64,000 nt of DNA from a bacterium (GTDB lineage: Bacteria; Patescibacteriota; Microgenomatia; Levybacterales; UBA12049): the NCBI GenBank assembly GCA_021813145.1, contig JAKALS010000005.1, positions 8,022-72,021 of the forward strand, written 5' to 3'. The stretch's first letter is position 1; every line of letters starts with the position of its first letter. The translations under genes were made by a program, and so were the position numbers. The notes beneath the pieces were generated by a model, which was not told the origin of the DNA, ran no database searches, and was given only the letters and a program-made list of their open reading frames with translations. This document shows, one piece after another, positions 4,232-33,600 of this stretch.

Positions 4232-4255
4232 CGCTATATCGTGAAGTGATATAAT
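4228..4255 (+). promoter_or_regulatory. promoter: TTGACG (4228-4233), 16-nt spacer, extended -10 TGaTATAAT (4247-4255), 6 nt before ATG 4262 (leaderless)
   Basis: Read directly from the sequence. Confidence 0.45.
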
Positions 4256-4261
4256 AACTTC

Positions 4262-4537
4262 ATGAAGAGTTTTAAAAAATATTTTTTTCTAACTTTAATT
4301 TTATCATTCATTCTTTTGGGAATAATTTTTATAAATCAATATTTCGTTCTAAAAAAAGCCCACAGTTCGTTTGAAAATTATTATGCTTTCAGGGGGTGTG
4401 TCTCTTTGATAAAAAGAACTGCCGGTTACGGGACTTGTAAATTGCAAAACGGCCGGCAGATAAAACTTGTCAAATTTCAGAACAAATGGTATCTAGACAA
4501 TGATTTGCCTTTGTGTTTATTCGGAAAATGCTTCTGA
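4262..4537 (+). CDS. hypothetical small secreted/membrane-anchored protein (4 Cys)
   Basis: N-terminal hydrophobic helix and a strong upstream promoter. No recognisable domain. Confidence 0.45.
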   Translation: MKSFKKYFFLTLILSFILLGIIFINQYFVLKKAHSSFENYYAFRGCVSLIKRTAGYGTCKLQNGRQIKLVKFQNKWYLDNDLPLCLFGKCF

Positions 4538-4577
4538 ATCGGTTGACAAAATCCCTCTTGTCTGAAAGCATTAAATA

Positions 4578-5561
4578 GTGGACAAATTAAAAATATTAAG
4601 AAATATTATTTTAATAATTTTTCTTCTTCTTGCGGTTAAAGTTTTATATCCCCATATCTCCGATATCCAAAAACTTTATGCCGCCAAAAACTCGCTTAAT
4701 TATTTTTGGATAGTAATTGCTATTCTTTCACAACTTAGCCAATACGTAGAAGACGGAATTTTTACGAAATTGATGTTTAAGCTTGTAAACTTCAGGATAA
4801 AAATCAAGGATACGGTAAGAGTGGCTTCTTTAGATGTTTTTGCAACACGTCTTTTCCCCGTAGGTCAATTGGGTCCTTTAGCTGCCACTTTTTATTTTTA
4901 TCACAAATTCGGAATAGACTACGATGCCATAATTTTCCTTAATTTTTTATACAGCGTTGCCGGAATTTCCCTAATGGTACTGCTTTTGCTTATTTCTTTG
5001 CCTACAATACCTTTTTCTACTTTTGAAATTCCCGTCCATCTTTATCTTTTCATAACTGTCGTTATTATGGTTTTAATATCTTTTACTGTGCTTTTTCTTT
5101 TAATAAGGGTAAAGGATTTTCATAAAAAAATTTTTTTCTATTTCAGTAAATTTGAATGGTTTAAAAAAGTTGAACAAATCCTCGGAAAAGTAGAAACTTA
5201 TAAAAATTTATTCAAGAATCATAAATTCAGATTTATCGGATACTCGTTCGGAAAAAATTTATTCTATTACCTTGCGGATATAGTCACTTTGGAAGCTTGT
5301 TTTTTGGCGTTTCATGTAGAGCCGCATATCTCATTAATAATATTTGCCTATATAATTTCTCAGGTTGCCGGGGCCCTGACGCTTTTGCCCGCAGGATTAG
5401 GTTCTACCGATGCAACTCTTGGAATAGTATTTCTCTCTACAAATATCAATCCGGGAATTTCGGTTACGGTTATTATCCTTTACAGACTTATATCTTTAAT
5501 TCTTCCTTTCCCGTTAGGTATTTTATCTTATTATTCGCTGAAAAAAGAATTTAAAAGTTAA
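4578..5561 (+). CDS. integral membrane protein, UPF0104/lysylphosphatidylglycerol-synthase-TM-like (flippase-like)
   Basis: About 8 TM helices and a C-terminal PAGLGSTDATLG motif resembling the GGLGxxE of the UPF0104 family. GTG start. Confidence 0.5.
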   Translation: MDKLKILRNIILIIFLLLAVKVLYPHISDIQKLYAAKNSLNYFWIVIAILSQLSQYVEDGIFTKLMFKLVNFRIKIKDTVRVASLDVFATRLFPVGQLGPLAATFYFYHKFGIDYDAIIFLNFLYSVAGISLMVLLLLISLPTIPFSTFEIPVHLYLFITVVIMVLISFTVLFLLIRVKDFHKKIFFYFSKFEWFKKVEQILGKVETYKNLFKNHKFRFIGYSFGKNLFYYLADIVTLEACFLAFHVEPHISLIIFAYIISQVAGALTLLPAGLGSTDATLGIVFLSTNINPGISVTVIILYRLISLILPFPLGILSYYSLKKEFKS

Positions 5562-6091
5562 GGTGAAATTTTAAAGTTCTGGTAACGGGGAAACCAGGAA
5601 ATTTGTTTTCCCGAACTATCGTAAATTCCTACATTCACAAAATAAGTTCCCGGGTTAAGAGTCGGCGGGGTATCCATAGAAATAGTTTTTGTTTCCGACG
5701 GATCAAGCGTAATGTTTGAAAATTTTTTGTCTGTAATCCTTTGGTTTTGTGAATTGGAAATAATAATATCCGCGGAGAAAGTTATTTGCACGGATGAATA
5801 GTTTTCCAAAGTTCCGTTAAAAGTGGAGGTTGAGCCCTTTTTAAAGTAATAGTCGGACATGGAGTTTTGCGTAAGCTGAACGTTTCCCTTTACCGTTGAG
5901 GTTTTTGAAAATGCGTTTGGCGAGGAGGGTGAAAAAGAACCGTAGGGAACGGCCGGAGAGGATTCCGATTTGAAAATATTAAAAATTTTTGCCCCGGATA
6001 TAATGACGGCAATTGCAAAAACTGCAATTCCGATTTTTAATATATTTTTATGGACAGGCAAAAGATATTTTTTAAAACCAGGCCTTTGCAT
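5558..6091 (-). CDS. hypothetical secreted protein (N-terminal TM anchor)
   Basis: 177-aa ORF convergent with the 4578 gene. No known motif. Confidence 0.45.
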   Translation of the reverse strand: MQRPGFKKYLLPVHKNILKIGIAVFAIAVIISGAKIFNIFKSESSPAVPYGSFSPSSPNAFSKTSTVKGNVQLTQNSMSDYYFKKGSTSTFNGTLENYSSVQITFSADIIISNSQNQRITDKKFSNITLDPSETKTISMDTPPTLNPGTYFVNVGIYDSSGKQISWFPRYQNFKISP

Positions 6092-6143
6092 ACGGGAATT
6101 GTAGAAAAAGGAAATTAAAATTGTTTAAAAAATCGGTAAGAAA

Positions 6144-6755: not shown

Positions 6756-7094
6756 CCTTTTAACAAAATATTAACGGAGAAAAATTATTTTCACAAGAGG
6801 CAAATTGAAGCTGGACTTGTGATTAAGATTACAAAATTATAAAATCGGCTTATGGAACTTGAGAAGGTGTCAAACATAGAATTTTCATTAAGCAAAAGAA
6901 CTAAGGAAGAGGTTTTGGAATGCTATCTATGTTACTTGTTTTTGCAGGAGGAGCGGGTTTTTTGGAGCAAATACAAAGACAAAATTATAATCCGGTTTTA
7001 ACAACAGCTTCGGTTGCGGCTTTTATAAGCGGTAGTATGATTAGTTTTTCCCCTATTGAGGAAAAATTTGAAGCGCCGCAGGATGGGGAAATAT

Positions 7095-7124
7095 TTGACA
7101 ATTTTTAGAAATAATGTCTATATT
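7095..7124 (+). promoter_or_regulatory. promoter TTGACA (7095-7100), N18, TATATT (7119-7124), 7 nt before ATG 7132
   Basis: Read directly from the sequence. Confidence 0.4.
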
Positions 7125-7131
7125 AGATTAG

Positions 7132-7629
7132 ATGAAAAAGTTCTTAAAAGAATGGGAATGGTTTTCATTTAAAGATTACAGGCATTTACCCGTTTTTATC
7201 GGTTTTATAGTTTTACTTTTGGGGCTCACTATAGCAATAACGCTTGCAACAAATGCTACCTCGGGAGGTCAGTCGGGAGCAAGTTACCAAAAATGCGTTC
7301 CTCTTCCTCCTTGCTACGCTTCAAACAGATGCCCTGAAATCATCAATTACAGAATTCCCAATATGAGATGGTGCCTTCCGAGCCCTACTCCGTCTATGTT
7401 CCCCGTACCTACGCCCGGGGTTTTTCCGACTCCCGGTCAAAGAGGTTGTTACTATGTGCAAGGAGTATGTCCTTTGACTGCATGTAGGCAGGGATATCCT
7501 TGTCCGACATGCCCGCCTAGGCTTATTTGTCCCAGCCCGGTACCGACTGCTACGCCGGTTATAAAACCGACCTTTACACCGGTTCCGGTCCATACACTTG
7601 TACCAAGGCCGAGGGTTAATCCCTATTAA
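7132..7629 (+). CDS. secreted Cys/Pro-rich protein (signal anchor plus 12 Cys)
   Basis: N-terminal TM helix followed by a PxP/Cys-rich low-complexity region. Confidence 0.5.
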   Translation: MKKFLKEWEWFSFKDYRHLPVFIGFIVLLLGLTIAITLATNATSGGQSGASYQKCVPLPPCYASNRCPEIINYRIPNMRWCLPSPTPSMFPVPTPGVFPTPGQRGCYYVQGVCPLTACRQGYPCPTCPPRLICPSPVPTATPVIKPTFTPVPVHTLVPRPRVNPY

Positions 7630-7642
7630 TGCGTTTTCTTCG

Positions 7643-8296: not shown

Positions 8297-8329
8297 ATTT
8301 AGCCGCTTTTTTTCTGTTATAATTGTCGA

Positions 8330-9526
8330 ATGCCCTCGAAATCAGGAGCAAAAACCAAAGCAAAAAAAACCCCTAAAAGAGTAAAATCTGCCCAGGCCAC
8401 GGGGATTTTGACACATAGAATTTCCGTTTTTGCGACAGGGTTTTTAGCCGCCGCGATATTTATTATTGCCCTGTCTTTTGTTTTAGTCCGGATAAACCAG
8501 ACTTTTGCCGCAAATTTTGCAGACAATGTTTTAAGACCCGTTATCGGAAATACGGCAACAATAAAAATAGAATCTTTATTTTTTGGCGTAGAAGATAATG
8601 TAAATAAGGTAAAATATGCTCTTGTAAAGCCGACGCCCGTTTTATTTACACAGGTTTCGCGGGAAAAAAGTATATATGCCGATTATAGTAATTCTTTTAG
8701 CTTAAACAGGATAACCTCTCTTTCTTATTTTTCTCTTTTTCCGGGCGAAGGCCAATGGAGCCCCATCTATAACGGTTCTTCGGAAGCGTATATGGAAAAA
8801 ACATTCGTAAGACCTGATCCTCAAAGGCCGTATGCGGTGGTATCTCTGGTTAAAATGGACATGAGCCATTTAAGTATTAATGCCGTTGCGGGGACCCGGG
8901 AACCGGGTGGTACTCAGAATCCCGGGCCCGGAAAAGTCCCCGAGGTAGTGCAAAAGAGCAACGATCTTGTGGCCGCTTTTAATGGAGGTTTTCAGCAAAA
9001 AGACGGACATTACGGAATGATAGTAAACGGGAAAACTTACCTCCCTCTTAAAAAAGGATTGGCAACCCTCGTAATTTACAACGGATATAAACCCCAAATA
9101 GTCGATTATGAGGGACAAAGCCTCGGGCAGAATGTAGTTACAATAAGGCAGAATGGACCGATGCTCTTGGAGAATGGACAGGATGTGACTTCATCAAGCG
9201 CCTGGAATATGCAGACCTGGGGGTTAACAATCACAAACTCGATGTACACATGGCGTTCGGGAATAGGGGTAACAAAAAACGGAAATCTTATTTATGCCGT
9301 AGGACCCTCTCTTGTTCCCGAAACTCTGGCTGCCGCACTAAAAGCAGCAGGAGCGGTAGATGCAATGCAGCTTGATATAAACCCGGTCTGGGTAAGGTTT
9401 GTAGTTTTTACTCCCCTGGGTAACGGACAATACAACTATTATCCTCTGACAAAAGACATGACTAACGGAGGCTATCAGGATCTTACGGGTTATCAAAAAG
9501 ATTTCTTCTATCTTATCAAAAAATAA
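8330..9526 (+). CDS. phosphodiester glycosidase family protein (DUF2233-like), membrane-anchored
   Basis: Lys-rich N-terminal tail plus TM helix. Central AAFNGGF...GMIVNGK...IGVTKNGNLIYAV resembles the DUF2233 family. Confidence 0.5.
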   Translation: MPSKSGAKTKAKKTPKRVKSAQATGILTHRISVFATGFLAAAIFIIALSFVLVRINQTFAANFADNVLRPVIGNTATIKIESLFFGVEDNVNKVKYALVKPTPVLFTQVSREKSIYADYSNSFSLNRITSLSYFSLFPGEGQWSPIYNGSSEAYMEKTFVRPDPQRPYAVVSLVKMDMSHLSINAVAGTREPGGTQNPGPGKVPEVVQKSNDLVAAFNGGFQQKDGHYGMIVNGKTYLPLKKGLATLVIYNGYKPQIVDYEGQSLGQNVVTIRQNGPMLLENGQDVTSSSAWNMQTWGLTITNSMYTWRSGIGVTKNGNLIYAVGPSLVPETLAAALKAAGAVDAMQLDINPVWVRFVVFTPLGNGQYNYYPLTKDMTNGGYQDLTGYQKDFFYLIKK

Positions 9527-9556
9527 ACCCTTGAAAACTAATGATATAATTTTGTG

Positions 9557-10603
9557 GTGAAAAAGACGGTAGGCTTGTTCATGCTGATCCTCTCTATTGT
9601 TGTAGTAGTAGAGACCCTCTATATTGCAAATAAGATTTATGTTGTAAAAAATATAGTTGCGGTAAAAACACCTTCCCCGACGCCTCTTATTGCATTCGAT
9701 TTTAATAATCTGAAAAAAACAAAATTTCCAAAGACTCAAATTATTTTTGGAAGGGTCATAAATCAAAATAACGAATATATCTCCCGGGTGTTTTATTATT
9801 CGGTTCCTAAAACTCCGGGAAGTACTGTTCTGGAAAAAGTTTCGGGACTCGCAAATATTCCCCAAAAACCCGGCACTTACCCGGTGATTATAATGTACAG
9901 GGGTTTTGTTCCGGATAATATTTATAAACCCGGAGTCGGTACCCAGCCGGTTGCAAGCGTCCTTGCTCAAAACGGGTATATTACTCTTGCCCCCGATTTT
10001 CTGGGATACGGGGAATCGGATATGCCATCAAAAGATCCTTTTGAAAACAGATTCCAAACGTACACCACCGCGGTAACCCTTCTGTCTTCAATTCCGACTT
10101 TAAACAAAGGATTGGACGCCAGCTATTCGGGACAGATAAAAGCGGATATGGGTAAAATAGGAATTTGGGGACACAGTAACGGAGGGCACATAGCATTGTC
10201 AACGCTCGAAATAACCGGCGTTAAATATCCAACGGTACTTTGGGCACCCGTATCTACATCTTTTCCTTATTCCATTCTCTATTATACCGATGAATCGCAG
10301 GATCAGGGCATGGCGCTTCGTAAAACTCTTGCAGGTTTTGAAGCTACATATAACACCAATTTATTTTCACCTACCAATTATTTAAATTGGATTAAAGCTC
10401 CAATTCTTGTAAACCAGGGAACTGCGGATGAAGAAGTCCCTTATTGGTGGTCTCAAAACCTGGTCTCACAGTTACAAAAAGACGGAGATTCGGCCAATCT
10501 GATAGAATATGACGGAGCGGACCATAATATGCTTCCTGAGGACGAATGGTCCCGGGCGGTAGGGAATACTCTAAATTTCTACAATAAGGCTTTTAATAAA
10601 TAG
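9557..10603 (+). CDS. secreted alpha/beta hydrolase (dienelactone hydrolase / S9 peptidase-like)
   Basis: GIWGHSNGGH nucleophile elbow (GxSxG) with a downstream Asp and His. Start taken at GTG 9557, 6 nt after TGaTATAAT. Confidence 0.65.
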   Translation: MKKTVGLFMLILSIVVVVETLYIANKIYVVKNIVAVKTPSPTPLIAFDFNNLKKTKFPKTQIIFGRVINQNNEYISRVFYYSVPKTPGSTVLEKVSGLANIPQKPGTYPVIIMYRGFVPDNIYKPGVGTQPVASVLAQNGYITLAPDFLGYGESDMPSKDPFENRFQTYTTAVTLLSSIPTLNKGLDASYSGQIKADMGKIGIWGHSNGGHIALSTLEITGVKYPTVLWAPVSTSFPYSILYYTDESQDQGMALRKTLAGFEATYNTNLFSPTNYLNWIKAPILVNQGTADEEVPYWWSQNLVSQLQKDGDSANLIEYDGADHNMLPEDEWSRAVGNTLNFYNKAFNK

Positions 10604-11246: not shown

Positions 11247-12390
11247 TTTTATAATTAGTCAAAGGATTTAAAATTAAATCCCCTTCGTACCCCAATGCCC
11301 AAAGAGCCAATCCTTCCAGCTGAAAATTATTCGCCATTGTTATTTTTGCCTGCGTAGAAGCTTTATCGGGGTAAAAAATCGTATGAAAATCACCGCTCGT
11401 AGGGTCAAAATAGACAATGTATTTTTCATCTGCCTCTTTGTCAAGAGTAGCGCTGCAGGAAGAGCACGAAGAAATAAGATTTTCCACCCTTTCGTTACTA
11501 GCAACAACTCCGGTTCCGGGGATAATAGCCGATCGGGGTACTTGTCCTAAAGTTTCCCATTCGTATCCGTAAAGAGGAATTCCCAGAACTAATTTTTCCG
11601 GAGGGATTAAATCGAGAGCTTTTTCAACGGCAGATGTTACATCGTATTCCGAACTTATTCCCGCTCCAGAGACAGGAGCCACAGGGCCCGTCACAAAAGA
11701 ACTTGTGGAATGATAATCGTAGGCCATAAGAACAACGTTATTTGCAATTTTTGAAATTGCATTGGGGTCTATTAAATTATTTTTTATTACGTCGGTAGGA
11801 CTTATCTCCACTGTCAGGGTTACTCCGTTTCCCAATTCTCTTTTGACTTCACCGACAAACTTTGTAAAATTTTGCCTTGAAGACGGGGAAGCCTGAGAAG
11901 TATATTCAATGTCAAGATTAATGTCGGAAAACTTATATTTTGCAATAATAGGTTTAAGATCCATAACAAGGTTTTTTGCGTGCGCACCGGGACTTGCGAT
12001 AAGCTCGTTTATGGAATCCACATCCCCGCTTACTATCATAAGAGATAAATTCTCATTATTTTTGAGCGCTTGCGCAAAAAAATTATCAAGTTTCCCGGAA
12101 TTAAGAGCATTCCATCCGGGTTCTTCCTCCTGAGGGTTTAAAAGTTTTTGAATGTTTCCGTTGCCGTCTACTCTCAGCCCGAAATATGCAAGGGTAGTTA
12201 TATATTTTAAATGATTATTATTCTCCTTGTCTAAAAGCCAGTAGGGTAAAAAACCTATTACCATTTTTTTTGGCGCCAGGGGATTTATTATTGCGTTGTC
12301 TGTTTTGGGAACCAGGAAATTAAGAACTATTAGGATTCCTAAACCAACTCCAAGCAATAAGCCGATTACGGCAACTAAAATTTTCTTCAC
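11239..12390 (-). CDS. secreted GH18-like TIM-barrel glycosidase (chitinase/ENGase superfamily)
   Basis: Signal anchor. DINLDIEY resembles the GH18 DxDxDxE region but is one residue short. C-terminal LEGLALWALGYEGD resembles the GH18 C-terminus. Confidence 0.5.
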   Translation of the reverse strand: MKKILVAVIGLLLGVGLGILIVLNFLVPKTDNAIINPLAPKKMVIGFLPYWLLDKENNNHLKYITTLAYFGLRVDGNGNIQKLLNPQEEEPGWNALNSGKLDNFFAQALKNNENLSLMIVSGDVDSINELIASPGAHAKNLVMDLKPIIAKYKFSDINLDIEYTSQASPSSRQNFTKFVGEVKRELGNGVTLTVEISPTDVIKNNLIDPNAISKIANNVVLMAYDYHSTSSFVTGPVAPVSGAGISSEYDVTSAVEKALDLIPPEKLVLGIPLYGYEWETLGQVPRSAIIPGTGVVASNERVENLISSCSSCSATLDKEADEKYIVYFDPTSGDFHTIFYPDKASTQAKITMANNFQLEGLALWALGYEGDLILNPLTNYKNE

Positions 12391-12410
12391 AATTTATTTT
12401 ACCATTAAAA

Positions 12411-12818
12411 TTATAGAAGATTTGCTATCGTGCCTCTGAGGCTCTGAACGCTGTAGTATGTGGCAAAGAAAAAAATTAAAGCAAGAGCTTCGTTGGTTAA
12501 AAATAAAAAATCGAATAAAGAGTCCCCGGAAAGATAAATCTGTACGGCCGAATACTGAAAAATAATAAAACCGCCCATAGAAAGAAGGGTATCTAAAAAG
12601 TCTACATATCTGTCTTTAGGACTAGTCATTCCCGCAAATATCGCAATGCCCAGGATTATAAGAATAGATAAAGAAAGCGGAATAGGAAGCTCTTTATGGA
12701 CGAAAGGAAGATCCAAAATCATTATTATACCTGCTACTATAAATAATTTTCTGACATTGTCCTCTGTAGCCGGAAGCAATTTTTTCCCGTAGTTAAAAAT
12801 ATCTACATGGTTTGCCAT
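12411..12818 (-). CDS. hypothetical membrane protein
   Basis: 135-aa ORF with 3-4 TM helices. Confidence 0.45.
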   Translation of the reverse strand: MANHVDIFNYGKKLLPATEDNVRKLFIVAGIIMILDLPFVHKELPIPLSLSILIILGIAIFAGMTSPKDRYVDFLDTLLSMGGFIIFQYSAVQIYLSGDSLFDFLFLTNEALALIFFFATYYSVQSLRGTIANLL

Positions 12819-12853
12819 TGGCTTAAGTATAGTCTTAAATAATTAATTGTCAA

Positions 12854-12940
12854 TTAATTGTGTAAGGTTCCTCTTCTTGGGCCTCTTTTTCTTTTTGCAA
12901 ATTGGCCTTTGCCGAGAGTTTTTCTTTTTGATTTAGCCAT
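12854..12940 (-). CDS. candidate 28-aa highly basic small protein (MAKSKRKTLGKGQFAKRKRGPRRGTLHN)
   Basis: Not in the ORF track because it is under 60 aa. A strong Shine-Dalgarno GGAGGT sits 5 nt upstream of the ATG. Confidence 0.3.
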   Translation of the reverse strand: MAKSKRKTLGKGQFAKRKRGPRRGTLHN

Positions 12941-13005
12941 TGTTACCTCCTTATTACATTCTATCATGTAAAAGCATCCTTTTATAAGGGGTGTATAATT
13001 TAGAC

Positions 13006-13491
13006 ATGGAAGATGAAGAGTTGAGACGGCAGCTTATAAGCCTTTTAAAAGGCGGGAATGCGCACATGACTTTTGACGAAGCTGTTTCAGATTTCCCTGA
13101 AGATAAAATAAATACCATTTTTACAAATGGGGATTATTCTTTCTGGCATTTGCTTGAACATATAAGAAGAACTCAAAATGATATTTTGGAGTTTATACAA
13201 AACCCCAAGTACGAGGAAAAAGAATGGCCAAAAGATTACTGGCCCGAAAAGTCCCGGAAAGCGACCAAAAAAGACTGGGAAAAAACAATAGAGTTTTTCC
13301 ATAGGGACCGGGAAGAATTGGCGAAGATAATAAATGATAAAAAGACGGATTTATTCAAAAAAATTCCCTGGGGAGACGGACAGAATATTGTCCGCGAAAT
13401 ACAAACCGTTTCTGACCATAATTCTTATCACATAGGGGAATTTGCAATCATGAGGCAGGTTCTAAAAACCTGGGGCAAGGGTCATAACTAG
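13006..13491 (+). CDS. DinB/YfiT-like (DinB_2) family protein
   Basis: FWHLLEHIRRT and a HNSYHIGE His-rich four-helix pattern. TATAAT at 12994-12999, 6 nt, then ATG 13006 (leaderless). Confidence 0.55.
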   Translation: MEDEELRRQLISLLKGGNAHMTFDEAVSDFPEDKINTIFTNGDYSFWHLLEHIRRTQNDILEFIQNPKYEEKEWPKDYWPEKSRKATKKDWEKTIEFFHRDREELAKIINDKKTDLFKKIPWGDGQNIVREIQTVSDHNSYHIGEFAIMRQVLKTWGKGHN

Positions 13492-18844: not shown

Positions 18845-18860
18845 GAGCCAATTATACTCT

Positions 18861-19565
18861 TTAGAGGATTTCTTTTTCCGCCATGAGTTGGAAAGATTCG
18901 TATTTGAACTGGTTTTTGTCAATTCTTTTTAAAAATCTTTCCCAGTCTTTATTCTGGGTTTTATGTTCCTTTAAAGCCTTTATTTTCTTATCCATTGTTT
19001 TTTCTATATCTACAAAAGTCGTTATGTTTTTATCCGCGGTTCCCCTCACTTTACCGAAAGCGTTGTAATCCAACCCCTGTTTCTCGAATCTTTTTACAGA
19101 GGTTCTTGGCATTGCGGTGTGATATAGCCGGGTATGTTTTTTAACAGTGTCTTTATATTTTAAATAAACGTTTGTAGCAGCCCTTCCGATTGCTTTGTGG
19201 TCGGGATGATTGGAGCCTCCGGTTTTATCGAAGGTTATTACCACATCCGGTTTTTCCTTTTTGAATATCCCGAATATTTTATTTTCCAACTCTTTATTTC
19301 TTGCATACCTTAATTTTCCGTCAATGTACCCCAAAAAAAAGATTTCCGATATTCCTAAAATTTTTGCAGCGCGTCTCAACTCCTGTTCCCTTACGCCTGG
19401 TAATTTATCCACAGTCGTAATCGGCGGTGTTCCGGGAAGTCCTGCTTCACCTCTGGTTGCTGTTATGAGTTTTACGGTATGTTTTTCCGAGGTTAATTTT
19501 GCTATTGTCCCGCCGCTGGAAAAAGTTTCGTCGTCCGGATGTGCAAAAACCAATAAAAGTTTCAT
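18861..19565 (-). CDS. PIG-L/LmbE family N-acetylglucosaminyl deacetylase
   Basis: KLLLVFAHPDDETFSSGG gives the AHPDDE motif of the PIG-L family. Confidence 0.8.
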   Translation of the reverse strand: MKLLLVFAHPDDETFSSGGTIAKLTSEKHTVKLITATRGEAGLPGTPPITTVDKLPGVREQELRRAAKILGISEIFFLGYIDGKLRYARNKELENKIFGIFKKEKPDVVITFDKTGGSNHPDHKAIGRAATNVYLKYKDTVKKHTRLYHTAMPRTSVKRFEKQGLDYNAFGKVRGTADKNITTFVDIEKTMDKKIKALKEHKTQNKDWERFLKRIDKNQFKYESFQLMAEKEIL

Positions 19566-19607
19566 AGACAAAGATTATACAACTTGTTGTAAAATAAAAA
19601 AACGGTT

Positions 19608-20753: not shown

Positions 20754-20773
20754 TTTTCTGTTATAATAGTTGT

Positions 20774-21586
20774 TTGATGGATCCGGATAAAAATATCATT
20801 GACGTAAGGGATTTAGTAAAAAATTTTAAAGGGTTTACCGCGGTGGACTCGATAAATTTTGAGGTGAAAAGAGGAGACATATTCGCTTTTTTGGGGCCAA
20901 ACGGCGCAGGTAAAACTACGACAATAAAAATGCTGACAACTCTTCTTGGTCCCAGTTCCGGAACAATTTTTCTTAACGGAATAGACGTCGTAAAAGAGGC
21001 GGAAAAAGCAAGAAAATCTTTTGGAATTGTTTTTCAGGATCCAAGTCTTGACGACGAACTTACCGCGTACGAAAATATGGAATTTCACGCAATTTTATAC
21101 GGAATAGGTAAGACTACGAGGACAGAAAGAATAAAAGAACTTTTAAATTATGTCGAACTTTGGGAACGAAGAAAAGATTTAGTCAAAACATTTTCGGGAG
21201 GAATGAAAAGAAGACTCGAAATAGCAAGAGGATTGCTTCATCATCCCAAAATCCTGTTTTTAGACGAACCGACTTCGGGTCTTGATCCTCAAACAAGAAA
21301 TCATATTTGGGATTATATAAAAAAACTAAATTCTTCTGAAAAGATAACGGTATTTTTTACAACACACTATATAGAAGAAGCCGACAGGTATGCAAAGGAT
21401 ATAGCCATTATGGATCATGGGAAAATTGTCACCAAAGATACTCCGGAAAATTTAAAAAAGAAAACAAATTCTAAAGATTTGGAAGCGGCTTTTTTAAGGT
21501 TGACAGGAACTACCATCAGGGATGAGGAAGCAAGCGGGATAGACAGACTAAGAATGAGGTCAAGAGTTTGGGGAGGAAGAAGATAA
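20774..21586 (+). CDS. ABC transporter ATP-binding protein
   Basis: Walker A GPNGAGKTT, signature SGGMKRRLEIA, and Walker B ILFLDEPT. Confidence 0.85.
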   Translation: MMDPDKNIIDVRDLVKNFKGFTAVDSINFEVKRGDIFAFLGPNGAGKTTTIKMLTTLLGPSSGTIFLNGIDVVKEAEKARKSFGIVFQDPSLDDELTAYENMEFHAILYGIGKTTRTERIKELLNYVELWERRKDLVKTFSGGMKRRLEIARGLLHHPKILFLDEPTSGLDPQTRNHIWDYIKKLNSSEKITVFFTTHYIEEADRYAKDIAIMDHGKIVTKDTPENLKKKTNSKDLEAAFLRLTGTTIRDEEASGIDRLRMRSRVWGGRR

Positions 21587-22332: not shown

Positions 22333-22333
22333 T

Positions 22334-23947: not shown

Positions 23948-24050
23948 GAAATAGCTAACGCTTTTCTTACAAAAATTTTACCCTATTTTTTTACACAAAA
24001 GCTAGATTGTTATCTACCTTTCATCTGAGGGGGGGGTGACATAATAAAAA

Positions 24051-24185
24051 ATGCCTAACAATAAAAATAGCGGCAGAAATAAAACAGGAAACGGAAAAAG
24101 TAACCGTGGTCTTGCGTCTGCCGATAAAGCAACAAGACAAAGGGTAGCAAGCGAAGGAGGAAAAGCGCATGCCAGAAACATGTAA
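24051..24185 (+). CDS. 44-aa KGG-repeat general stress protein-like peptide (MPNNKNSGRNKTGNGKSNRGLASADKATRQRVASEGGKAHARNM)
   Basis: Not in the ORF track. Strong SD (GAGGGGGGGG). GLASADKATRQRVASEGGKA matches the KGG/YciG-type stress motif. Confidence 0.45.
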   Translation: MPNNKNSGRNKTGNGKSNRGLASADKATRQRVASEGGKAHARNM

Positions 24186-24312
24186 CGGCTACCGCCAGGC
24201 GGGGGGCTCTCCGCCTAATGAATTTATTATTTACAAATCCCATACTCTACAATTTAATATGATTGTGGGACAAGCATTAAGTAAACAACGAAAATAATGT
24301 ATAATTTTACAT

Positions 24313-24645
24313 ATGGGAATATTACTCAACTGGATTGTAAGCGCAGTAGTAATTTTTGTAATAGCAAATTTGCTTCCGGGAGTTCATATTGCCTCATTTA
24401 CTACCGCACTGGTTGCCGCGGTTGTATTGGGGATTATAAACGCAGTGATTAAACCCGTTCTGGTTATCCTCACCCTTCCTATAAATATTCTTACGCTTGG
24501 CCTTTTTACGCTTGTAATAAACGCTTTTCTTATACTTATTGCCTCCTATATAGTTCCCGGTTTTAAAGTAGACGGTTTTATCTGGGCTCTTATATTCGGA
24601 ATAGTTTTATCCATAGTGAATTCCCTCGTCCATAATTTTGTCTGA
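24313..24645 (+). CDS. 4-TM DUF360 / phage holin 4_2 family membrane protein
   Basis: 110 aa with 4 TM helices. Sequence is typical of the YvlD/Phage_holin_4_2 family. Confidence 0.6.
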   Translation: MGILLNWIVSAVVIFVIANLLPGVHIASFTTALVAAVVLGIINAVIKPVLVILTLPINILTLGLFTLVINAFLILIASYIVPGFKVDGFIWALIFGIVLSIVNSLVHNFV

Positions 24646-24899
24646 TTTCTTACTTTTTTTTAACATTTTTCCTTCCCTTTTATGGAATAATCCGCTCATG
24701 GCTGATGAATATCCTCAAGACGAGGAACAACAACTTGCCGAAGACAAAGGCGCTTGGGTTTTTAATGAACCCCTGAGGGAAATGGGGTGTTTTCCGGTAC
24801 TAATCGCCTTTATTACTTTTTTAGCCGTTTTTATCCTCTTTGTAGTATAACCTATAGTCCTATTGACAATATTTAATTTCCTGTTTATAATCAGGCTGT

Positions 24900-25625
24900 A
24901 TGCTCGAAGTTGAAAGATTTCAGGTTGTCCCCGAAGCTCCTTATCGTATCGTACCCAAAACTTTGCCGATAGTTCACTTAATAGATTTCGTAACCCACAG
25001 AGACAAGGATATGGCCAATCATCTCATAGAACAAGCTACAAGAGAATATAGTGATCCATACGAAAGATGGGAGGCAGTCAGAAGGTCAAGAGCGGATATT
25101 GTTACCGGCTCCAGTATTGTGGAAAAGAATTCCGGCCTTACCTTGCGCCATACCGGGTGGGAGGGTTTTTATGTCGGACGAGGCATGTCATCGGAGGAAA
25201 TAGTAATGGATCAGGCTCAAATAGGAGCAAGGGTGGTAAAAACGATGGAAACGATGTACCCCGACTCTTATCAAAGAATAAAAAGGATATTTGAAACAAA
25301 AAGGGGTTACAGTCTGGAAGACTTAAAAGAGATTGAGATATGGTTTAAGGTTATAAAGTCAAGATTTGATGCAAGAGAATTACCCAGCGAAGGAGAAATT
25401 TTCCGAAGGCAGACGACAGAGCTTGTCCAGAAAATGCCGCCTATTGTCCTGGAAAGAGATGTAAATGGAATAACGCAGTTTATTCCTGTTCCGGCAAGAG
25501 GAGAGCTATTCGGGGGTCAGACTATTGTAAATATGAGCCCAAAGGAACTCGCGGGTTACAGATTTATGGAAAATGTGGGAATAGTAGGTCAACCTCCCAT
25601 AAGGGCAATGCTCAAAGCTGCCTAA
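24900..25625 (+). CDS. hypothetical protein
   Basis: 241-aa ORF with coding-like composition. No recognisable motif. Confidence 0.45.
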   Translation: MLEVERFQVVPEAPYRIVPKTLPIVHLIDFVTHRDKDMANHLIEQATREYSDPYERWEAVRRSRADIVTGSSIVEKNSGLTLRHTGWEGFYVGRGMSSEEIVMDQAQIGARVVKTMETMYPDSYQRIKRIFETKRGYSLEDLKEIEIWFKVIKSRFDARELPSEGEIFRRQTTELVQKMPPIVLERDVNGITQFIPVPARGELFGGQTIVNMSPKELAGYRFMENVGIVGQPPIRAMLKAA

Positions 25626-26668
25626 AATTCACGGGCTTTTACTTCCTCTTTTAATTTTTCAAGCATCTTATCCTTTGTTAAAAGTCCCCTTTGGGCACCT
25701 ACGGCTCCTATTACCGCGCAGGCATTCAAAGCCCCCCATTCCATGCATTGACTAAGCCCGTTTCCTTTTAGAAAAGATGAAATAAATCCCGATGTAAAAG
25801 CGTCTCCCGCTCCGGTTTTTTCCACGATATCACATTTTATTGCCTCCATAAAAAGGCTTTCATGTTTTTCATCCATAATATAGGAACCGTTCTGCCCGTC
25901 TGTAATAACAACTATTTTTGGTCCAAGGCTCTTTAGTCCGTACAGGATTTTTTTTATGTAGCTTCGGGAATCAAGGGGAATTTTTATTTCTTTCCCGTAT
26001 AGAAGCTCTTCCGCTTCTTCTTTATTCACAAAAAGAATTAAGCTTTGGGAAATAATTTTCCAGATAAGGCTCCCTCTGTGTGCGATTTGCAAAGTTCCGG
26101 GATTGAAGAAAAGAGGAATGCCGTTTTCTATAGAGAAATTTAGGGTCTTTTCGTAGGCTTTTTCCCAGGAAGGGCCGAGGCTTGTAAGAAACAGGGCTTT
26201 TGTTTTTTTGCCTTCGTATTTAAAATTGTGTTCTCTTTTTATGTGTTCTACGAAAAGAGTCCTGTCGGCTCTAAAATTTATTCCTACGGAAAGCGAAGAA
26301 GCTTCGCTTTCTATCTGGTTTACAAGCTCCAAATCTACATCTTCTTTAGAAAGTGAATTTATTATTTTTTGGGAAAATTCGTCTTTCCCTATTTCTGCTA
26401 CAAGTCCGCTTTTAAATCCCAGTCTTGATATTCCAACCGCTACATTTGCCGCATTCCCTCCTATTGATAAATCATATTTTTTTACTTCTATTTTTTCTCC
26501 GTGTCCGAAGCGCAGCTCGTTTGTTTTTTCGTCGAGTCTTATGTGAGGATTTTTCTCATCTATGGTCAGAAAAACGTCTATGGTGGCGTTTCCGACGGTC
26601 AGTATATCTACGGGCAGCATACTATTATCGTATCTAAACAAAGGTTTTATTTCAATCGGCTTTGACAA
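25622..26668 (-). CDS. PfkB family carbohydrate kinase (ribokinase-like)
   Basis: GGNAANVAVGISRLG and C-terminal GAGDAFTSGF PfkB signatures. Confidence 0.85.
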   Translation of the reverse strand: MSKPIEIKPLFRYDNSMLPVDILTVGNATIDVFLTIDEKNPHIRLDEKTNELRFGHGEKIEVKKYDLSIGGNAANVAVGISRLGFKSGLVAEIGKDEFSQKIINSLSKEDVDLELVNQIESEASSLSVGINFRADRTLFVEHIKREHNFKYEGKKTKALFLTSLGPSWEKAYEKTLNFSIENGIPLFFNPGTLQIAHRGSLIWKIISQSLILFVNKEEAEELLYGKEIKIPLDSRSYIKKILYGLKSLGPKIVVITDGQNGSYIMDEKHESLFMEAIKCDIVEKTGAGDAFTSGFISSFLKGNGLSQCMEWGALNACAVIGAVGAQRGLLTKDKMLEKLKEEVKAREF

Positions 26669-26686
26669 GTCCTGTATAATCGAAGT

Positions 26687-27196
26687 ATGGGAAAAGAGGA
26701 AGAAGAAAGAAGATTAAGGTCGCCTCATGCAGGTATTTATCCGTTTGACCCGACGGCGGGAACGCCGGAGCAGATAGCGCAAAATCCTCCTCGTTTAAGG
26801 TCCTGGGAGAAGGGATTAAAAGAAGAGGTGAAAAGAACTCCGAAGACTTTAAGATTTAAAGCGGGAACTGTTTTGTACAGGGCAGGATATAATGCCGCAG
26901 GAGAGCCTATTCTCCCCAAAGATTTTAGGGAGGCAGACGATTTAAGGTTGGATGTTTTAAATTTTGAAAGAGATTTTAAAGTCGCGGAAAGTTCTATGGG
27001 GGAAGGCAAAAGAAAAGCAAGAGTAGTGAAGCCCTTAGGGATAACGCAATACGGCCCGATAATAGAGGTAATAGTCGAAAGGAAAGCCGGTGAAGGAAGA
27101 ATTATAGAAGAAAGAAGATTCGTAAGCTTATTGGATAGAAGTCTTCCGAGGGATAACCCGAGGAGAAGATGGGCTGCCCAAAGGGAAAATTTCTAG
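26687..27196 (+). CDS. hypothetical protein (Arg/Glu-rich)
   Basis: 169-aa ORF. TATAAT at 26675-26680, 6 nt, then ATG (leaderless). GC is locally higher. Confidence 0.5.
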   Translation: MGKEEEERRLRSPHAGIYPFDPTAGTPEQIAQNPPRLRSWEKGLKEEVKRTPKTLRFKAGTVLYRAGYNAAGEPILPKDFREADDLRLDVLNFERDFKVAESSMGEGKRKARVVKPLGITQYGPIIEVIVERKAGEGRIIEERRFVSLLDRSLPRDNPRRRWAAQRENF

Positions 27197-28446: not shown

Positions 28447-28486
28447 TAACTTTTATATTTTAATTAAGAGGGATTTTTATTTCAAG

Positions 28487-28786
28487 TTATATTTTTTCAC
28501 CGCAAGTCCTTACGGATTTTATTACCTGCTTAAAGATATGTCCTTTTGGGGTAAGCGAATATTCAACTTTGGGGGGGACCGAAGCATACACTTTTTTTTG
28601 TATATATCCTTCTTTCTCCAGCTGCTGAAGTCTTTTTGAAAGCGTTTTCGGGTTAATGTCTCCTACGCTTCTTTCCAGCTCCCCAAACCGTTTGGTTCCG
28701 CCCAAAAGAGAATTAAGGATTAGAATCGTCCATTTGCTGCCTATAATTTTTGCAACTTTTGAAACCTCCAAAAGATCTGCGTCCAT
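28487..28786 (-). CDS. HxlR family winged-helix transcriptional regulator
   Basis: ILNSLLGGTKRFGELERSVGDINPKTLSKRLQQLEKEGYI is the HxlR signature. Confidence 0.8.
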   Translation of the reverse strand: MDADLLEVSKVAKIIGSKWTILILNSLLGGTKRFGELERSVGDINPKTLSKRLQQLEKEGYIQKKVYASVPPKVEYSLTPKGHIFKQVIKSVRTCGEKI

Positions 28787-28803
28787 ACTTTACTTTCTGT
28801 AAC

Positions 28804-28845
28804 TACTTGACAAAGTCTAGCATTGTTACTATACTTTGTCAAGTA
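28804..28845. promoter_or_regulatory. perfect 13-bp inverted repeat TACTTGACAAAGT-N16-ACTTTGTCAAGTA; each arm carries a TTGACA -35 for divergent promoters (hxlR and FMN reductase); candidate HxlR operator
   Basis: Read directly from the sequence. Plus strand: TTGACA 28807-28812, N17, TATACT 28830-28835. Minus strand: mirror TTGACA, N17, TAGACT. Confidence 0.55.
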
Positions 28846-29390
28846 TGGATAAGGTTAGGATTTTAGGAATAGGAGGAAGTTTAAGAAGAGGCTCATTCAG
28901 TAAAGGACTTCTTTTGGAAGCGAAAAAACTGGCTCCCGAAAATATAGATTTTGAAATTTGGGAAGACTATAATTTTCCTCCGTATAACCCGGACATAGAG
29001 ATTCCCCAAAACGTAAAAGAATTTAAGGATAAGATTAAAAATGCCGATGCCCTCCTTTTTTCCATTCCCGAATATAATTATTCGGTTCCCGGGTTTATAA
29101 AAAATGCAATTGACTGGGCGTCGAGGCCTTATGGAGACAATTCTTTTGAGGATAAGGCTGCCGCAATTATGAGCGAATCTACAGGTACGACAGCAGGCTC
29201 AAAAGCACAATATCATTTAAGGCAGATTTTTGTTTTCTTAAATATACATGTTTTGAATAAACCCGAATTTATGGTTCCAAACGCGAGTGGAAAATTCGAT
29301 AAAGAAGGAAACCTGACGGATGAAGAGACCAAAGCAAAAATTCTACCTTTTCTTAATGCCCTGGCAGAGTGGGCAAAAAGGCTTAAATAA
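28845..29390 (+). CDS. NAD(P)H-dependent FMN reductase family protein
   Basis: RILGIGGSLRRGSFSK flavodoxin-like motif of the SsuE/ArsH/NADPH-FMN reductase family. Confidence 0.8.
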   Translation: MDKVRILGIGGSLRRGSFSKGLLLEAKKLAPENIDFEIWEDYNFPPYNPDIEIPQNVKEFKDKIKNADALLFSIPEYNYSVPGFIKNAIDWASRPYGDNSFEDKAAAIMSESTGTTAGSKAQYHLRQIFVFLNIHVLNKPEFMVPNASGKFDKEGNLTDEETKAKILPFLNALAEWAKRLK

Positions 29391-29450
29391 TTTTCCTGTT
29401 TATTATATAATTCTTACATACCTTTCATTTTTTAAAAATAAAATATTTTC

Positions 29451-29927
29451 ATGCTAAAAAGAATTGTTAAATTAATTCCTTCCGGGTTTGCGTACGCGCA
29501 CTGCGATATTCCCTGCGGGATTTATGACCCTCACGCCGCTCAGGTTGCGGCATTCACAGTCATAAGAATGACCCAGCTTTTAGAGGATTTGAAAAGAGAG
29601 GGTGAAACAAAAGCGGAGCACGACGTAGCAAGAATTACTCATGTAAAAGAGGAGCATTCAAATATTCTGGAAGACGAACTCGAAACTCTCAGAAACGACT
29701 ACTTCAAGGAAGAACATTTTAAAGAATTTCCCAATCTTAGCGAATTGTTTGTTAATACCCTTAAATTTTCGGCCAAAGCAAGACAGGGAATAGATATGGA
29801 GGCAGCCCAGGGTGCGCTTTCGGGAGTGCAGGAAATAGCTGAAATTTTTTTCAAAACAAAGGGAGTAGAACCTGTAAGAGTGAAATCGGTATACCCTACA
29901 GGCGGAGAAATTGTTCTCTACAAATAA
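29451..29927 (+). CDS. sodN: nickel superoxide dismutase precursor
   Basis: Ni-hook HCDIPCGIYDP (HCDLPCGVY consensus) follows a short N-terminal leader ending ...AYA|H. Confidence 0.85.
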   Translation: MLKRIVKLIPSGFAYAHCDIPCGIYDPHAAQVAAFTVIRMTQLLEDLKREGETKAEHDVARITHVKEEHSNILEDELETLRNDYFKEEHFKEFPNLSELFVNTLKFSAKARQGIDMEAAQGALSGVQEIAEIFFKTKGVEPVRVKSVYPTGGEIVLYK

Positions 29928-33582: not shown

Positions 33583-33600
33583 ACTATACGTGACTCAAGC

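What the first reader, a model, noticed from the sequence alone, without database searches (positions are those of the whole stretch)
4250..29451. Recurrent leaderless gene architecture: a TATAAT-like -10, about 6 nt, then the start codon
Multiple gene starts carry a consensus -10 exactly 6-7 nt upstream of the initiation codon with no room for a Shine-Dalgarno. Examples: 4262 (TGaTATAAT-aacttc-ATG), 9557 (TGaTATAAT-tttgtg-GTG), 13006 (TATAAT-ttagac-ATG), 18844 on the minus strand (TATAAT-tggctc-ATG), 26687 (TATAAT-cgaagt-ATG), 29451 (TAAAAT-attttc-ATG), 7132 (TATATT-N7-ATG), and 846. Other genes (23324, 17401, 24051, 12940) have strong GGAGG-type SDs. A mixed leaderless and SD-led translation regime affects how the true start codons should be called: several ORF-track starts lie upstream of the -10 and are impossible.
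Basis: seen in the sequence. Interest (0 to 1): 0.55.

Follow-up and report, generated by a model that had tools for sequence, protein, structure and literature searches.

The report
Leaderless genes in a Levybacteria genome
In this uncultured CPR bacterium (Candidatus Levybacteria), many genes have a normal promoter placed so close to the start codon that the mRNA should begin at the start codon itself; this layout is well known in other bacteria, is shared by related Levybacteria genomes, and comes with very little use of the usual ribosome-binding site.

Summary
All eight listed sites are in the sequence as described. TATAAT-N6-RTG occurs 7 times in the window against 1.2 expected, and every copy opens a real ORF. 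The distance from a -10 box to a start codon peaks sharply at 6 nt in the window and in 52 related Candidatus Levybacteria (CPR/Patescibacteria) loci. It does not peak in 27 control loci (mostly Firmicutes) of similar GC.

These -10 boxes have TGn extensions and TTGACA at 16-18 nt. They precede ATG or GTG but not TTG, favour a pyrimidine at -1, and keep their spacing across orthologues. Pfam profiles begin at the proposed first residues.

The best reading is sigma-70 promoters that start transcription on the start codon, giving leaderless mRNAs. About 27 of roughly 40 first-in-unit genes in the window fit, including rpsT, groES, uvrD and tatD.

The "mixed with Shine-Dalgarno" part needs correcting. 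SD sites are rare in this lineage, and downstream genes mostly overlap the preceding stop codon.

This is GeneMarkS-2 "group C" architecture in a lineage where I found no published report. It is a new member of a known kind. No transcription-start data exist, so the start sites remain inferred.

The parts
809..848 (+). TTGACA-N17-TGaTAATAT-N8-ATG 846. ArsR/HxlR-type regulator, 108 aa. The ORF-track ATG 825 lies inside the promoter spacer.
4228..4264 (+). TTGACG-N16-TGaTATAAT-N6-ATG 4262. 91-aa protein with an N-terminal hydrophobic segment.
   Evidence: (11/12 promoter match)
6089..6127 (-). TAAACA-N18-TACAAT-N6-ATG 6091. 177 aa, Wzt_C-like.
7095..7134 (+). TTGACA-N18-TATATT-N7-ATG 7132. 165-aa Pro-rich membrane protein.
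8315..8332 (+). TGtTATAAT-N6-ATG 8330. 398 aa, NAGPA domain.
9542..9559 (+). TGaTATAAT-N6-GTG 9557. Alpha/beta hydrolase, 348 aa. The ORF-track GTG 9554 would lie 3 nt after the -10.
12388..12404 (-). TGgTAAAAT-N5-GTG 12390. GH18 glycosidase, 383 aa.
12816..12853 (-). TTGACA-N16-TATACT-N7-ATG 12818. 135-aa membrane protein.
   Evidence: (11/12)
12854..12966 (-). Contrast case, SD-led. TGaTAGAAT promoter, short leader with AAGGAGGT, then ATG 12940. 28-aa basic peptide conserved in L007 and L036.
12994..13008 (+). TATAAT-N6-ATG 13006. DinB_2 protein, 161 aa. The ORF-track GTG 12991 abuts the -10.
18842..18856 (-). TATAAT-N6-ATG 18844. MFS transporter, 386 aa. The ORF-track TTG 18922 is 78 nt upstream. 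The L010 orthologue has TATAAT-N6-GTG.
19563..19579 (-). TATAAT-N8-ATG 19565. PIG-L deacetylase; Pfam profile position 1 falls at residue 4. Orthologues have spacing 6 (L050) and 8 (L010).
20759..20779 (+). TGtTATAAT-N6-TTG 20774 or N9-ATG 20777. ABC ATPase. The ATG is the more likely start, because TTG is depleted at spacing 6.
24300..24315 (+). TATAAT-N7-ATG 24313. Holin_4_2 family protein; the profile (1-105 of 105) maps to residues 1-105. Orthologues keep a -10 at spacing 6-9.
24863..24902 (+). TTGACA-N17-TATAAT-N8-ATG 24900 (241 aa). L006 has spacing 6.
   Evidence: (12/12)
26618..26655 (-). TTGAAA-N17-TACGAT-N6-ATG 26620. PfkB kinase, 332 aa. The ORF-track TTG 26668 is rejected. 12 of the 14 orthologues shown keep spacing 6.
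26675..26689 (+). TATAAT-N6-ATG 26687 (169 aa). L006 has TATAAT-caatct-ATG.
28807..28847 (+). TTGACA-N17-TATACT-N9-ATG 28845. FMN reductase, with a predicted leader of 2-3 nt, conserved in L006 and L020.
29439..29453 (+). TAAAAT-N6-ATG 29451. Ni superoxide dismutase with a 16-aa propeptide before HCDIPCG. This is a weak site: an alternative TATAAT lies at 29406-29411. Many orthologues have TTGACA-N17-TATCAT/TATTAT-N6-ATG.
33559..33598 (-). TTGAGT-N17-TGgTATCAT-N8-ATG 33561. UvrD, true N-terminus MKQDFLKD. Its -10 overlaps the tpiA -10 (33566-33571, + strand) as a palindrome.
42133..42170 (-). TTGACA-N17-TAGACT-N6-ATG 42135. PilN-like, 187 aa. The promoter is conserved in 13 Levybacteria loci, with the ATG at spacing 6 or 9.
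42492..42509 (-). TGaTAAAAT-N6-ATG 42494. Ribosomal protein S20. Conserved in L006, L007 and L035.
47371..47388 (+). TGaTATTTT-N6-ATG 47386. GroES; Cpn10 profile position 1 falls at residue 6.
56373..56409 (-). TTGAGA-N16-TGtTATAAT-N6-ATG 56375. TatD; profile position 1 falls at residue 2.
57020..57060 (-). TTGACA-N18-TATAAT-N8-GTG 57022 (97 aa).
57072..57110 (+). TTGACT-N18-AATAAT-N6-ATG 57108. 54-aa small membrane protein. An AGGAG overlaps the spacer, so this site is ambiguous.
58180..58219 (-). TTGACT-N17-TATACT-N8-GTG 58182 (215 aa).
60895..60912 (-). TGcTAAACT-N6-ATG 60897. 110-aa membrane protein.
33566..33603 (+). Contrast case. The tpiA promoter TATAAT (33566-33571) is followed by a 29-nt stretch with a small hairpin (33579-33593) and no SD before ATG 33601. 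In 13 relatives the same -10 lies 8 nt from the ATG.

Best explanation
**What it is.** The window comes from a Candidatus Levybacteria genome (Microgenomates, CPR/Patescibacteria). In this organism and its relatives, a large share of transcription units, roughly half or more of first genes, carry a housekeeping sigma-70-type promoter. It consists of TTGACA, 16-18 nt, often TGn, then a TATAAT-like box, and the -10 ends 6 nt (sometimes 7-9) before an ATG or GTG.

**How it works.**
- RNA polymerase should start transcription on the purine of the start codon, or 1-3 nt before it. The mRNA therefore has no 5' leader and no Shine-Dalgarno site.
- Translation would begin by direct binding of a ribosome with initiator tRNA to the 5'-terminal AUG or GUG. 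This is the established bacterial leaderless pathway: 70S/IF2-favoured and independent of S1 and SD.
- Downstream genes in the same unit are mostly translated through stop-start overlap (ATGA and similar), again without SD.
- A few genes, such as the 28-aa peptide at 12940, use a classical SD on a short leader.

**Shown versus inferred.** The geometry, its statistics, the promoter hallmarks, the conservation and the protein N-termini are shown. The TSS position and the translation mechanism are inferred.
For: **Lineage.**
- The UvrD search places the window among Levybacteria MAGs: 85% identity to the best MAG, which is deposited only as 'bacterium', and 60-72% to named Levybacteria (taxonomy).

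**Spacing statistics.**
- In the window, exact TATAAT at spacing 6 occurs 8 times against 0.40 per other offset. In the Levybacteria loci it is 44 against 4.7. In the controls it is 1 against 3.2.
- At family level, 71 of 575 families have a -10 at spacing 6, against 16.9 +/- 4.6 at other offsets.
- 50 of 52 Levybacteria loci show the excess, against 2 of 27 control loci.
- The pattern tool finds 7 matches against 1.2 expected.

**Promoter hallmarks.**
- TGn precedes 32-37% of these -10 boxes, against 10% of control boxes. TTGACA (at least 5/6) is concentrated at spacers of 16-18 nt.
- The six best promoter matches in 1-40 kb (one scoring 12/12, four 11/12, and one 10/12 that carries TGn) all abut start codons.

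**Start-site signatures.**
- The peak is present for ATG (107 against 19.9) and GTG (18 against 4.0) but not for TTG (4 against 10.8).
- A pyrimidine sits at -1 in 74% of spacing-6 sites, against 55% elsewhere (p = 3e-5).
- With starts chosen blind to upstream sequence, the averaged profile gives T-12, A-11, T-7 and T-1 and no G-rich block. The controls give GGGGG at -12 to -8.

**Conservation.**
- Orthologues of sodN, pfkB, rpsT, the pilN-like gene, the holin-family gene and others keep the spacing while the sequences diverge.
- The 22879 family carries the -10 only where it heads a unit.
- uvrD and tpiA are divergent genes only 20 nt apart in 13 relatives, with overlapping -10 boxes.

**Protein starts.**
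- Pfam profiles begin at residues 1-6 of the proposed proteins.

**Low SD use and coupling.**
-.
Against: - There are no transcription-start or ribosome-profiling data for this uncultured organism.
- About 6 of the 21 strict hits in the window are expected by chance.
- Many sites lack a good -35 box.
- Sites at spacing 8-9 imply leaders of 1-3 nt rather than none.
- Some first genes are clearly leadered yet lack SD (17251, 23259, 28786, 33601), so leaderless initiation is not the only non-SD route here.
- 29451 has an alternative conserved upstream TATAAT.
- Read-through from upstream genes could also make leadered versions of these messages.
Confidence: 0.8

Rival explanations
1. The promoters are real, but transcription starts a few nucleotides away from the start codon. 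The messages would then carry very short leaders (1-5 nt), or the true start codon would lie further downstream and the transcript would be leadered in the usual sense.
For: - Secondary peaks appear at spacing 7-8.
- Orthologues of the pilN-like gene have the ATG 9 nt from the -10.
- 28845 has spacing 9, and 19608 varies from 8 to 16 among relatives.
Against: - The dominant spacing is exactly 6, the canonical distance from -10 to +1.
- TTG depletion and Y-1/R+1 fit a start on the first base of the codon.
- Protein conservation and Pfam coverage begin at the proposed codon.
- Leaders of 1-3 nt behave as leaderless in known systems (my own knowledge).
Confidence: 0.12
2. The TATAAT-like box acts at the RNA level. 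It would be an A/U-rich, non-SD ribosome-binding or standby element in leadered mRNAs made from promoters further upstream, as with upstream adenines in Bacteroidia.
For: - The lineage shows almost no SD signal, and its internal genes have A-rich upstream regions. Some non-SD recognition must therefore exist.
Against: - The boxes come with TGn and with TTGACA at 16-18 nt, which are DNA-level promoter features.
- They are enriched before first genes (36-44%) more than before internal genes (14-21%).
- The 22879 family has the box only when it heads a unit.
- Intergenic spacers of 20-35 nt leave no room for another promoter plus a leader.
Confidence: 0.05
3. The pattern is a compositional accident: AT-rich intergenic DNA next to start codons.
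For: - The overall count of promoter-like sites equals that of shuffles.
Against: - There is an offset-specific peak, with no enrichment at neighbouring offsets.
- No shuffle reaches the observed count.
- No peak appears at internal Met/Val codons.
- No peak appears in control loci (mostly Firmicutes) of equal GC, 0.366 against 0.347.
Confidence: 0.02

Closest known systems
Bacterial leaderless-transcription genomes, GeneMarkS-2 'group C' (Mycobacterium tuberculosis, Streptomyces, Corynebacterium, Deinococcus deserti); Lomsadze et al. 2018, PMC6028130
   Same: - A Pribnow box lies 6-8 nt from the start codon of first genes in operons.
- 25-50% of operons are leaderless.
- The first base of the message is the start codon.
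- Gene finders mis-call starts unless this is modelled.
   Different: - This is a low-GC (about 35-39%) CPR lineage, not Actinobacteria or Deinococcus-Thermus.
- The promoters have an E. coli-like TTGACA -35 box and frequent TGn.
- Group C genomes are described as using SD-type RBS for other genes. Here the SD signal is almost absent even for internal genes.
- No TSS data exist for this lineage.
Archaeal leaderless regime, GeneMarkS-2 'group D' (Haloferax volcanii, Sulfolobus solfataricus)
   Same: - First genes are leaderless.
- Downstream genes are often tightly packed or overlapped.
- Overall dependence on SD is low.
   Different: - Archaeal promoters are a TATA box/BRE about 26 nt upstream and use archaeal RNA polymerase and initiation factors.
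- Here the promoter is a bacterial sigma-70 -35/-10 pair.
Bacteroidia non-SD initiation, GeneMarkS-2 'group B' (Flavobacterium johnsoniae; PMC6847099, PMC13000457)
   Same: - A bacterial lineage with very little SD use.
   Different: - Bacteroidia mRNAs are leadered and use upstream adenines.
- The same motif precedes first and internal genes and is not a promoter.
- Here the motif is a promoter that favours first genes.
Single leaderless messages in SD-using bacteria (lambda cI from PRM; PMC10491246)
   Same: - The promoter is placed so that +1 is the A of the AUG.
- A ribosome binds the 5' AUG directly.
   Different: - Those are isolated cases in genomes dominated by SD.
- Here it is a genome-wide habit that includes housekeeping genes (rpsT, groES, uvrD, tatD).

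Membership tests
Bacterial leaderless gene architecture (GeneMarkS-2 group C type) | A -10 (Pribnow) box at a fixed 6-8 nt from the start codon of first genes in operons, above chance | tested here: met
Bacterial leaderless gene architecture (GeneMarkS-2 group C type) | The box is a promoter: -35 at 16-18 nt and/or TGn, favouring first genes over internal genes | tested here: met
   - TGn and the -35 spacer.
- 36-44% of first genes against 14-21% of internal genes.
- Within-family contrast.
Bacterial leaderless gene architecture (GeneMarkS-2 group C type) | The start codon at the 5' end is ATG or GTG (purine +1) | tested here: met
   - The peak is present for ATG and GTG but not for TTG.
- A pyrimidine at -1 is enriched.
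Bacterial leaderless gene architecture (GeneMarkS-2 group C type) | The proposed start codon is the true protein start | tested here: met
   - Orthologue alignments.
- Pfam profile position 1 at residues 1-6.
- NiSOD propeptide length.
Bacterial leaderless gene architecture (GeneMarkS-2 group C type) | Primary transcript 5' ends map to the start codon (dRNA-seq or 5'-RACE) | not testable with these tools
   The organism is uncultured and no transcriptome was available.
Bacterial leaderless gene architecture (GeneMarkS-2 group C type) | Remaining genes (internal or leadered) use an SD-type RBS | tested here: not met
   - The SD positional peak is weak and broad.
- There is no G-rich block in the averaged profile.
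- SD-like cores precede 23% of coupled starts, against 71% in controls.
- A few genes do have perfect SDs (12940).
Bacteroidia-type non-SD leadered initiation (group B) | The same non-SD motif precedes first and internal genes and cannot be a promoter | tested here: not met
   The motif has promoter hallmarks and favours first genes.

The most novel reading that the evidence does not exclude
Levybacteria, and possibly other Microgenomates, may have largely abandoned Shine-Dalgarno-guided initiation. First genes would be leaderless and downstream genes translated by stop-start coupling. That is an archaeal-like expression regime in a bacterial lineage with reduced ribosomes (bS1 shortened to 3-4 domains across most CPR bacteria; bL9 absent in most Microgenomates; PMC9297842). 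Promoters that fill the 20-35 nt intergenic spacers would be part of genome streamlining. It is not CPR-wide: the one Saccharibacteria locus samped shows none.
Probability: 0.45. Interest if true: 0.55.

Novelty: new member of a known kind. Interest (0 to 1): 0.4.

Why it matters
- **Annotation.** Start codons in this and related CPR genomes should be called with a leaderless-aware model. Longest-ORF calls are wrong for at least 7 genes in this window, and SD-trained callers would be expected to err in the same way.
- **Biology.** CPR bacteria are uncultured, with reduced ribosomes and little known gene regulation. A genome-wide leaderless habit with almost no SD use would tell us how their messages are made and read. 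It would also explain their tiny intergenic spacers.
- **Experiments.** It gives clear promoter and start rules for expressing CPR genes or reading CPR metatranscriptomes.
- **Limit.** The architecture itself is well known in Actinobacteria and Deinococcus, so this extends a known phenomenon to a new lineage rather than revealing a new mechanism.

Tried and rejected
- **RNA genes.** Rfam and tRNA scans of the window found nothing, so there was no rRNA with which to check the anti-SD. A search for the conserved 16S 3' region in all loci found only a chance match.
- **Global promoter counts.** The number of promoter-like sites equals that in shuffles. Only the position relative to start codons is informative.
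- **Non-independent loci.** The raw spacing-8 peak in the Levybacteria loci was inflated by the repeated uvrD/tpiA orthologous promoter. I re-counted per protein family.
- **A mistaken -35.** I first read TTGACA upstream of 26687 as a -35 box. It lies only 7 nt from the -10, so I rejected that reading.
- **Literature.** Searches linking leaderless or SD to CPR, Patescibacteria or Saccharibacteria returned nothing on this topic. The TM7x transcriptome paper (PMID 35975994) is not held.
- **Breadth across CPR.** This could not be tested. It had 0 sites in 17 kb, where about 6 would be expected at the window's rate.

Full report
**Source of the window.** The window has 38-43% GC and no tRNA or Rfam hits. 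An exact-protein look-up places it on a 123.6-kb metagenome contig, ENA ERZ27237541 k141_2131353. The UvrD helicase (31696-33561, minus strand) finds its best relatives in Candidatus Levybacteria/Levyibacteriota MAGs. Identity is 85% to the best MAG (JAKALN01, deposited only as 'bacterium') and 60-72% to about 50 others, many of them named Levybacteria. The next relatives are Firmicutes at about 40%. Levyibacteriota belongs to the Microgenomates group of the Patescibacteria (CPR). That scan gave me 52 Levybacteria loci (967 kb) for comparison and 27 non-CPR loci, mostly Firmicutes (435 kb), as controls. Their GC is similar: 0.347 and 0.366, against 0.394 for the window.

**Checking the observation.** Every listed site is present as described.
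- TATAATNNNNNNRTG occurs 7 times in the window, against 1.22 +/- 0.99 in 100 dinucleotide-preserving shuffles. No shuffle reached 7. All 7 copies open ORFs of 91-398 aa.
- I also ran a scan that does not depend on gene calls. It took every start codon lying within 30 codons of the upstream in-frame stop and opening at least 80 codons. It then recorded the distance back to TATAAT-like hexamers.
- For exact TATAAT in the window, spacing 6 occurs 8 times, against 0.40 per offset at spacings 12-36 (Poisson 1e-8).
- In the Levybacteria loci the count is 44 against 4.7 (1e-27), with smaller peaks at 7-8. In the controls it is 1 against 3.2.
- The loci are partly orthologous, so I clustered the ORFs into 575 families. 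71 families have a -10 at spacing 6, against 16.9 +/- 4.6 at other offsets.
- Codons deep inside ORFs show no such peak.
- 50 of 52 Levybacteria loci show the excess individually, against 2 of 27 controls.

**Is the box a promoter?**
- Boxes at spacing 6-8 carry the TGn extension in 32-37% of cases, against 10% for boxes at control offsets.
- A TTGACA match of at least 5/6 is concentrated at spacers of 16-18 nt. In the window all such matches fall there.
- The generic promoter scan finds no more sites than shuffles do overall. However, its best matches all end 6-9 nt before a start codon: 4228-4255, 7095-7124, 12853-12826, 809-837, 24863-24891 and 28807-28835.
- The signature precedes 36-44% of divergent or spaced genes, against 14-21% of tightly following genes and 5-9% of most control classes.
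- One family makes the point directly. The gene at 22879 is ATGA-coupled to its upstream neighbour and has no box in the window, L006 and L008. In eight relatives it heads a unit and has TAGAAT, TATAAT or TATACT at spacing 5-6.

**Does transcription start on the start codon?** This can only be inferred, but three independent signs fit.
- The dominant spacing is 6, the canonical distance from -10 to +1.
- The peak exists for ATG (107 against 19.9) and GTG (18 against 4.0) but not for TTG (4 against 10.8), as expected if the first base must be an initiating purine.
- Position -1 is a pyrimidine in 74% of spacing-6 sites, against 55% elsewhere (p = 3e-5), which matches the usual Y-1/R+1 rule.

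I also chose starts blind to upstream sequence, taking the first ATG of each ORF. The averaged profile for first genes then gives T-12, A-11, T-7 and T-1. The controls give a G-rich block at -12 to -8.

**Are these the real protein starts?** Orthologue alignments say yes.
- PfkB (26620): 12 of the 14 orthologues shown keep spacing 6 while the hexamer itself changes (TACGAT, TACCAT, CATAAT, TAACAT). L019 and L034 are the exceptions.
- Ribosomal protein S20 (42494): TGnTAAAAT-N6.
- The PilN-like gene (42135): TTGACA-N17-TAGACT, with the ATG at spacing 6 or 9.
- The holin-family gene (24313): a -10 at spacing 6-9.
- NiSOD: many relatives have TTGACA-N17-TATCAT/TATTAT-N6-ATG.
- Pfam profiles start at residues 1-6 for the holin-family protein, TatD, PIG-L, FMN reductase, GroES and S20. 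The MFS domain starts at residue 13 from 18844.
- NiSOD from 29451 has a 16-aa propeptide before the HCDIPCG nickel hook.
- In 13 relatives, uvrD and tpiA are divergent genes separated by only 20 nt (CAT-accgTATAATgataccac-ATG). The two -10 boxes overlap as a palindrome. That leaves no room for leaders unless the promoters lie inside the opposite gene.

**Extent in the window.** A curated list has about 27 good sites among roughly 40 first-in-unit genes. They include rpsT, groES, uvrD, tatD, pfkB, sodN and several regulators and transporters. By the strict criterion, 21 of 89 ORFs are positive, against about 6 expected by chance. Several longest-ORF starts should be moved:
- 825 to 846
- 12991 to 13006
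- 18922 to 18844
- 26668 to 26620
- 33582 to 33561
- 42500 to 42494
- 47380 to 47386

**Shine-Dalgarno use.**
- Strong SDs exist. The clearest is TAAGGAGGTaacaATG for a conserved 28-aa basic peptide at 12940, which lies on the minus strand.
- Across the lineage, however, the SD positional peak is weak and broad, against a sharp peak in the controls.
- SD cores near any candidate start occur in 5-20% of genes, against 49-73% in the controls.
- The averaged upstream profile of internal genes shows no G-rich block.
- Instead, 34% of co-directional pairs (193 of 561) overlap by 8, 4 or 1 nt, against 10% in the controls. Only 23% of the 4-nt and 1-nt overlapped starts have an SD-like 4-mer, against 71%.
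- Some first genes are clearly leadered but still lack SD (17251, 23259, 28786, 33601).
24051 has its G-run 11-12 nt away and also TGaCATAAT at spacing 5.

**Comparison with what is known.** This is the architecture that GeneMarkS-2 calls group C. A Pribnow box lies 6-8 nt from the start of first genes, 25-50% of operons are leaderless, and the group is typical of Actinobacteria and Deinococcus-Thermus (PMC6028130). In the held literature I found no paper connecting leaderless genes or SD usage with CPR, Patescibacteria or Microgenomates. The closest is Tsurumaki et al. 2022. They report loss of the anti-SD in about half of Parcubacteria, and bS1 shortened to 3-4 domains in CPR, but do not discuss leaderless genes. 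The single Saccharibacteria locus in hand has no such site in 17 kb, so the habit is probably not CPR-wide.

**Verdict.** It is a new lineage for a known kind of architecture, with an unusually low SD background. It is useful for annotation and moderately interesting for translation biology. It remains unproven until transcript 5' ends are mapped.

Noticed in passing
window 33559-33603; L006, L011, L022, L021, L008, L012, L015, L014, L081, L036, L032, L018, L026 near position 10000: uvrD (minus strand, ATG 33561) and tpiA (plus strand, ATG 33601) are divergent. Their -10 boxes (TATCAT and TATAAT) overlap as a palindrome. In 13 relatives the two start codons are only 20 nt apart.
   Followed up: yes
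window 33572-33600 (hairpin 33579-33593): In the window and about 10 relatives, a stretch of about 21 nt carrying a small hairpin is inserted between the tpiA -10 and its ATG. L010 has two copies and L027 has two hairpins. This turns a leaderless gene into one with an SD-less leader. Two of the four stem pairs show compensatory changes.
   Followed up: partly
L065, L033, L034, L038 (and L023) upstream of the tpiA orthologue: In these relatives the ancestral leaderless ATG opens a 10-codon mini-ORF, for example ATGACCCTTCGACGTTGCTCAGGGTCATACTGA. It folds as a hairpin and ends 13-21 nt before the tpiA ATG. It could be a leaderless upstream ORF or attenuator.
   Followed up: no
window 12854-12966 (-): An unannotated 28-aa, very basic peptide (MAKSKRKTLGKGQFAKRKRGPRRGTLHN) has a perfect SD and its own TGaTAGAAT promoter. 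It is conserved in L007 (92%) and L036. Its function is unknown.
   Followed up: partly
window 24051-24185 (+): A 44-aa ORF that looks to me like a KGG-repeat stress protein (no Pfam hit). It follows a run of eight G. The opposite-strand 62-aa ORF (24055-24243) is probably spurious.
   Followed up: partly
window 28787-28844: The divergent HxlR regulator and FMN reductase share a spacer built on a long palindrome (TTGACAAAGT...ACTTTGTCAA) that contains both -35 boxes. It is probably the HxlR operator. The 27-nt SD-less HxlR leader is highly conserved across Levybacteria.
   Followed up: partly
window 29451-30217: Nickel superoxide dismutase (sodN) is followed by an overlapping S26-family peptidase, likely its maturation protease SodX. 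The pair is widespread in Levybacteria (36 loci).
   Followed up: partly
window 13492-17251 (-): Two adjacent large proteins (652 and 615 aa) each carry a C-terminal GH130 beta-1,2-mannobiose phosphorylase-like domain and an extra N-terminal region of about 300 aa. The first gene (17251) appears to have a 39-nt leader without SD.
   Followed up: no
window 26660-26680 and 60524-60550 (-); L006: TTGACA or TTGACT sits only 7-8 nt upstream of the -10 at the 26687 promoter and also at 60517. At 26687 it is conserved in L006. This is the wrong spacing for a -35 box. It may be a regulator site.
   Followed up: no
window 1-40000: Terminator-like hairpins are no more frequent than in shuffles (20 against 22.1; 15 against 23.0). 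Many intergenic spacers are only 20-35 nt and are filled entirely by a promoter.
   Followed up: no
window 35332-39161 (+): Three consecutive ORFs of about 430-445 aa for T-rich membrane proteins lie in the region of strongly negative AT skew (-0.23). The N-terminus of the second resembles the PMT/GT39 family by eye (no domain search run). That ORF (ATG 36635) has TATAAT immediately after the upstream stop codon, at spacing 10.
   Followed up: partly
L070 (Saccharibacteria MAG, 17 kb): There is no -10 at spacing 5-8 before any candidate start, where about 6 would be expected at the window's rate. The leaderless habit may be specific to Levybacteria or Microgenomates rather than general to CPR.
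   Followed up: partly
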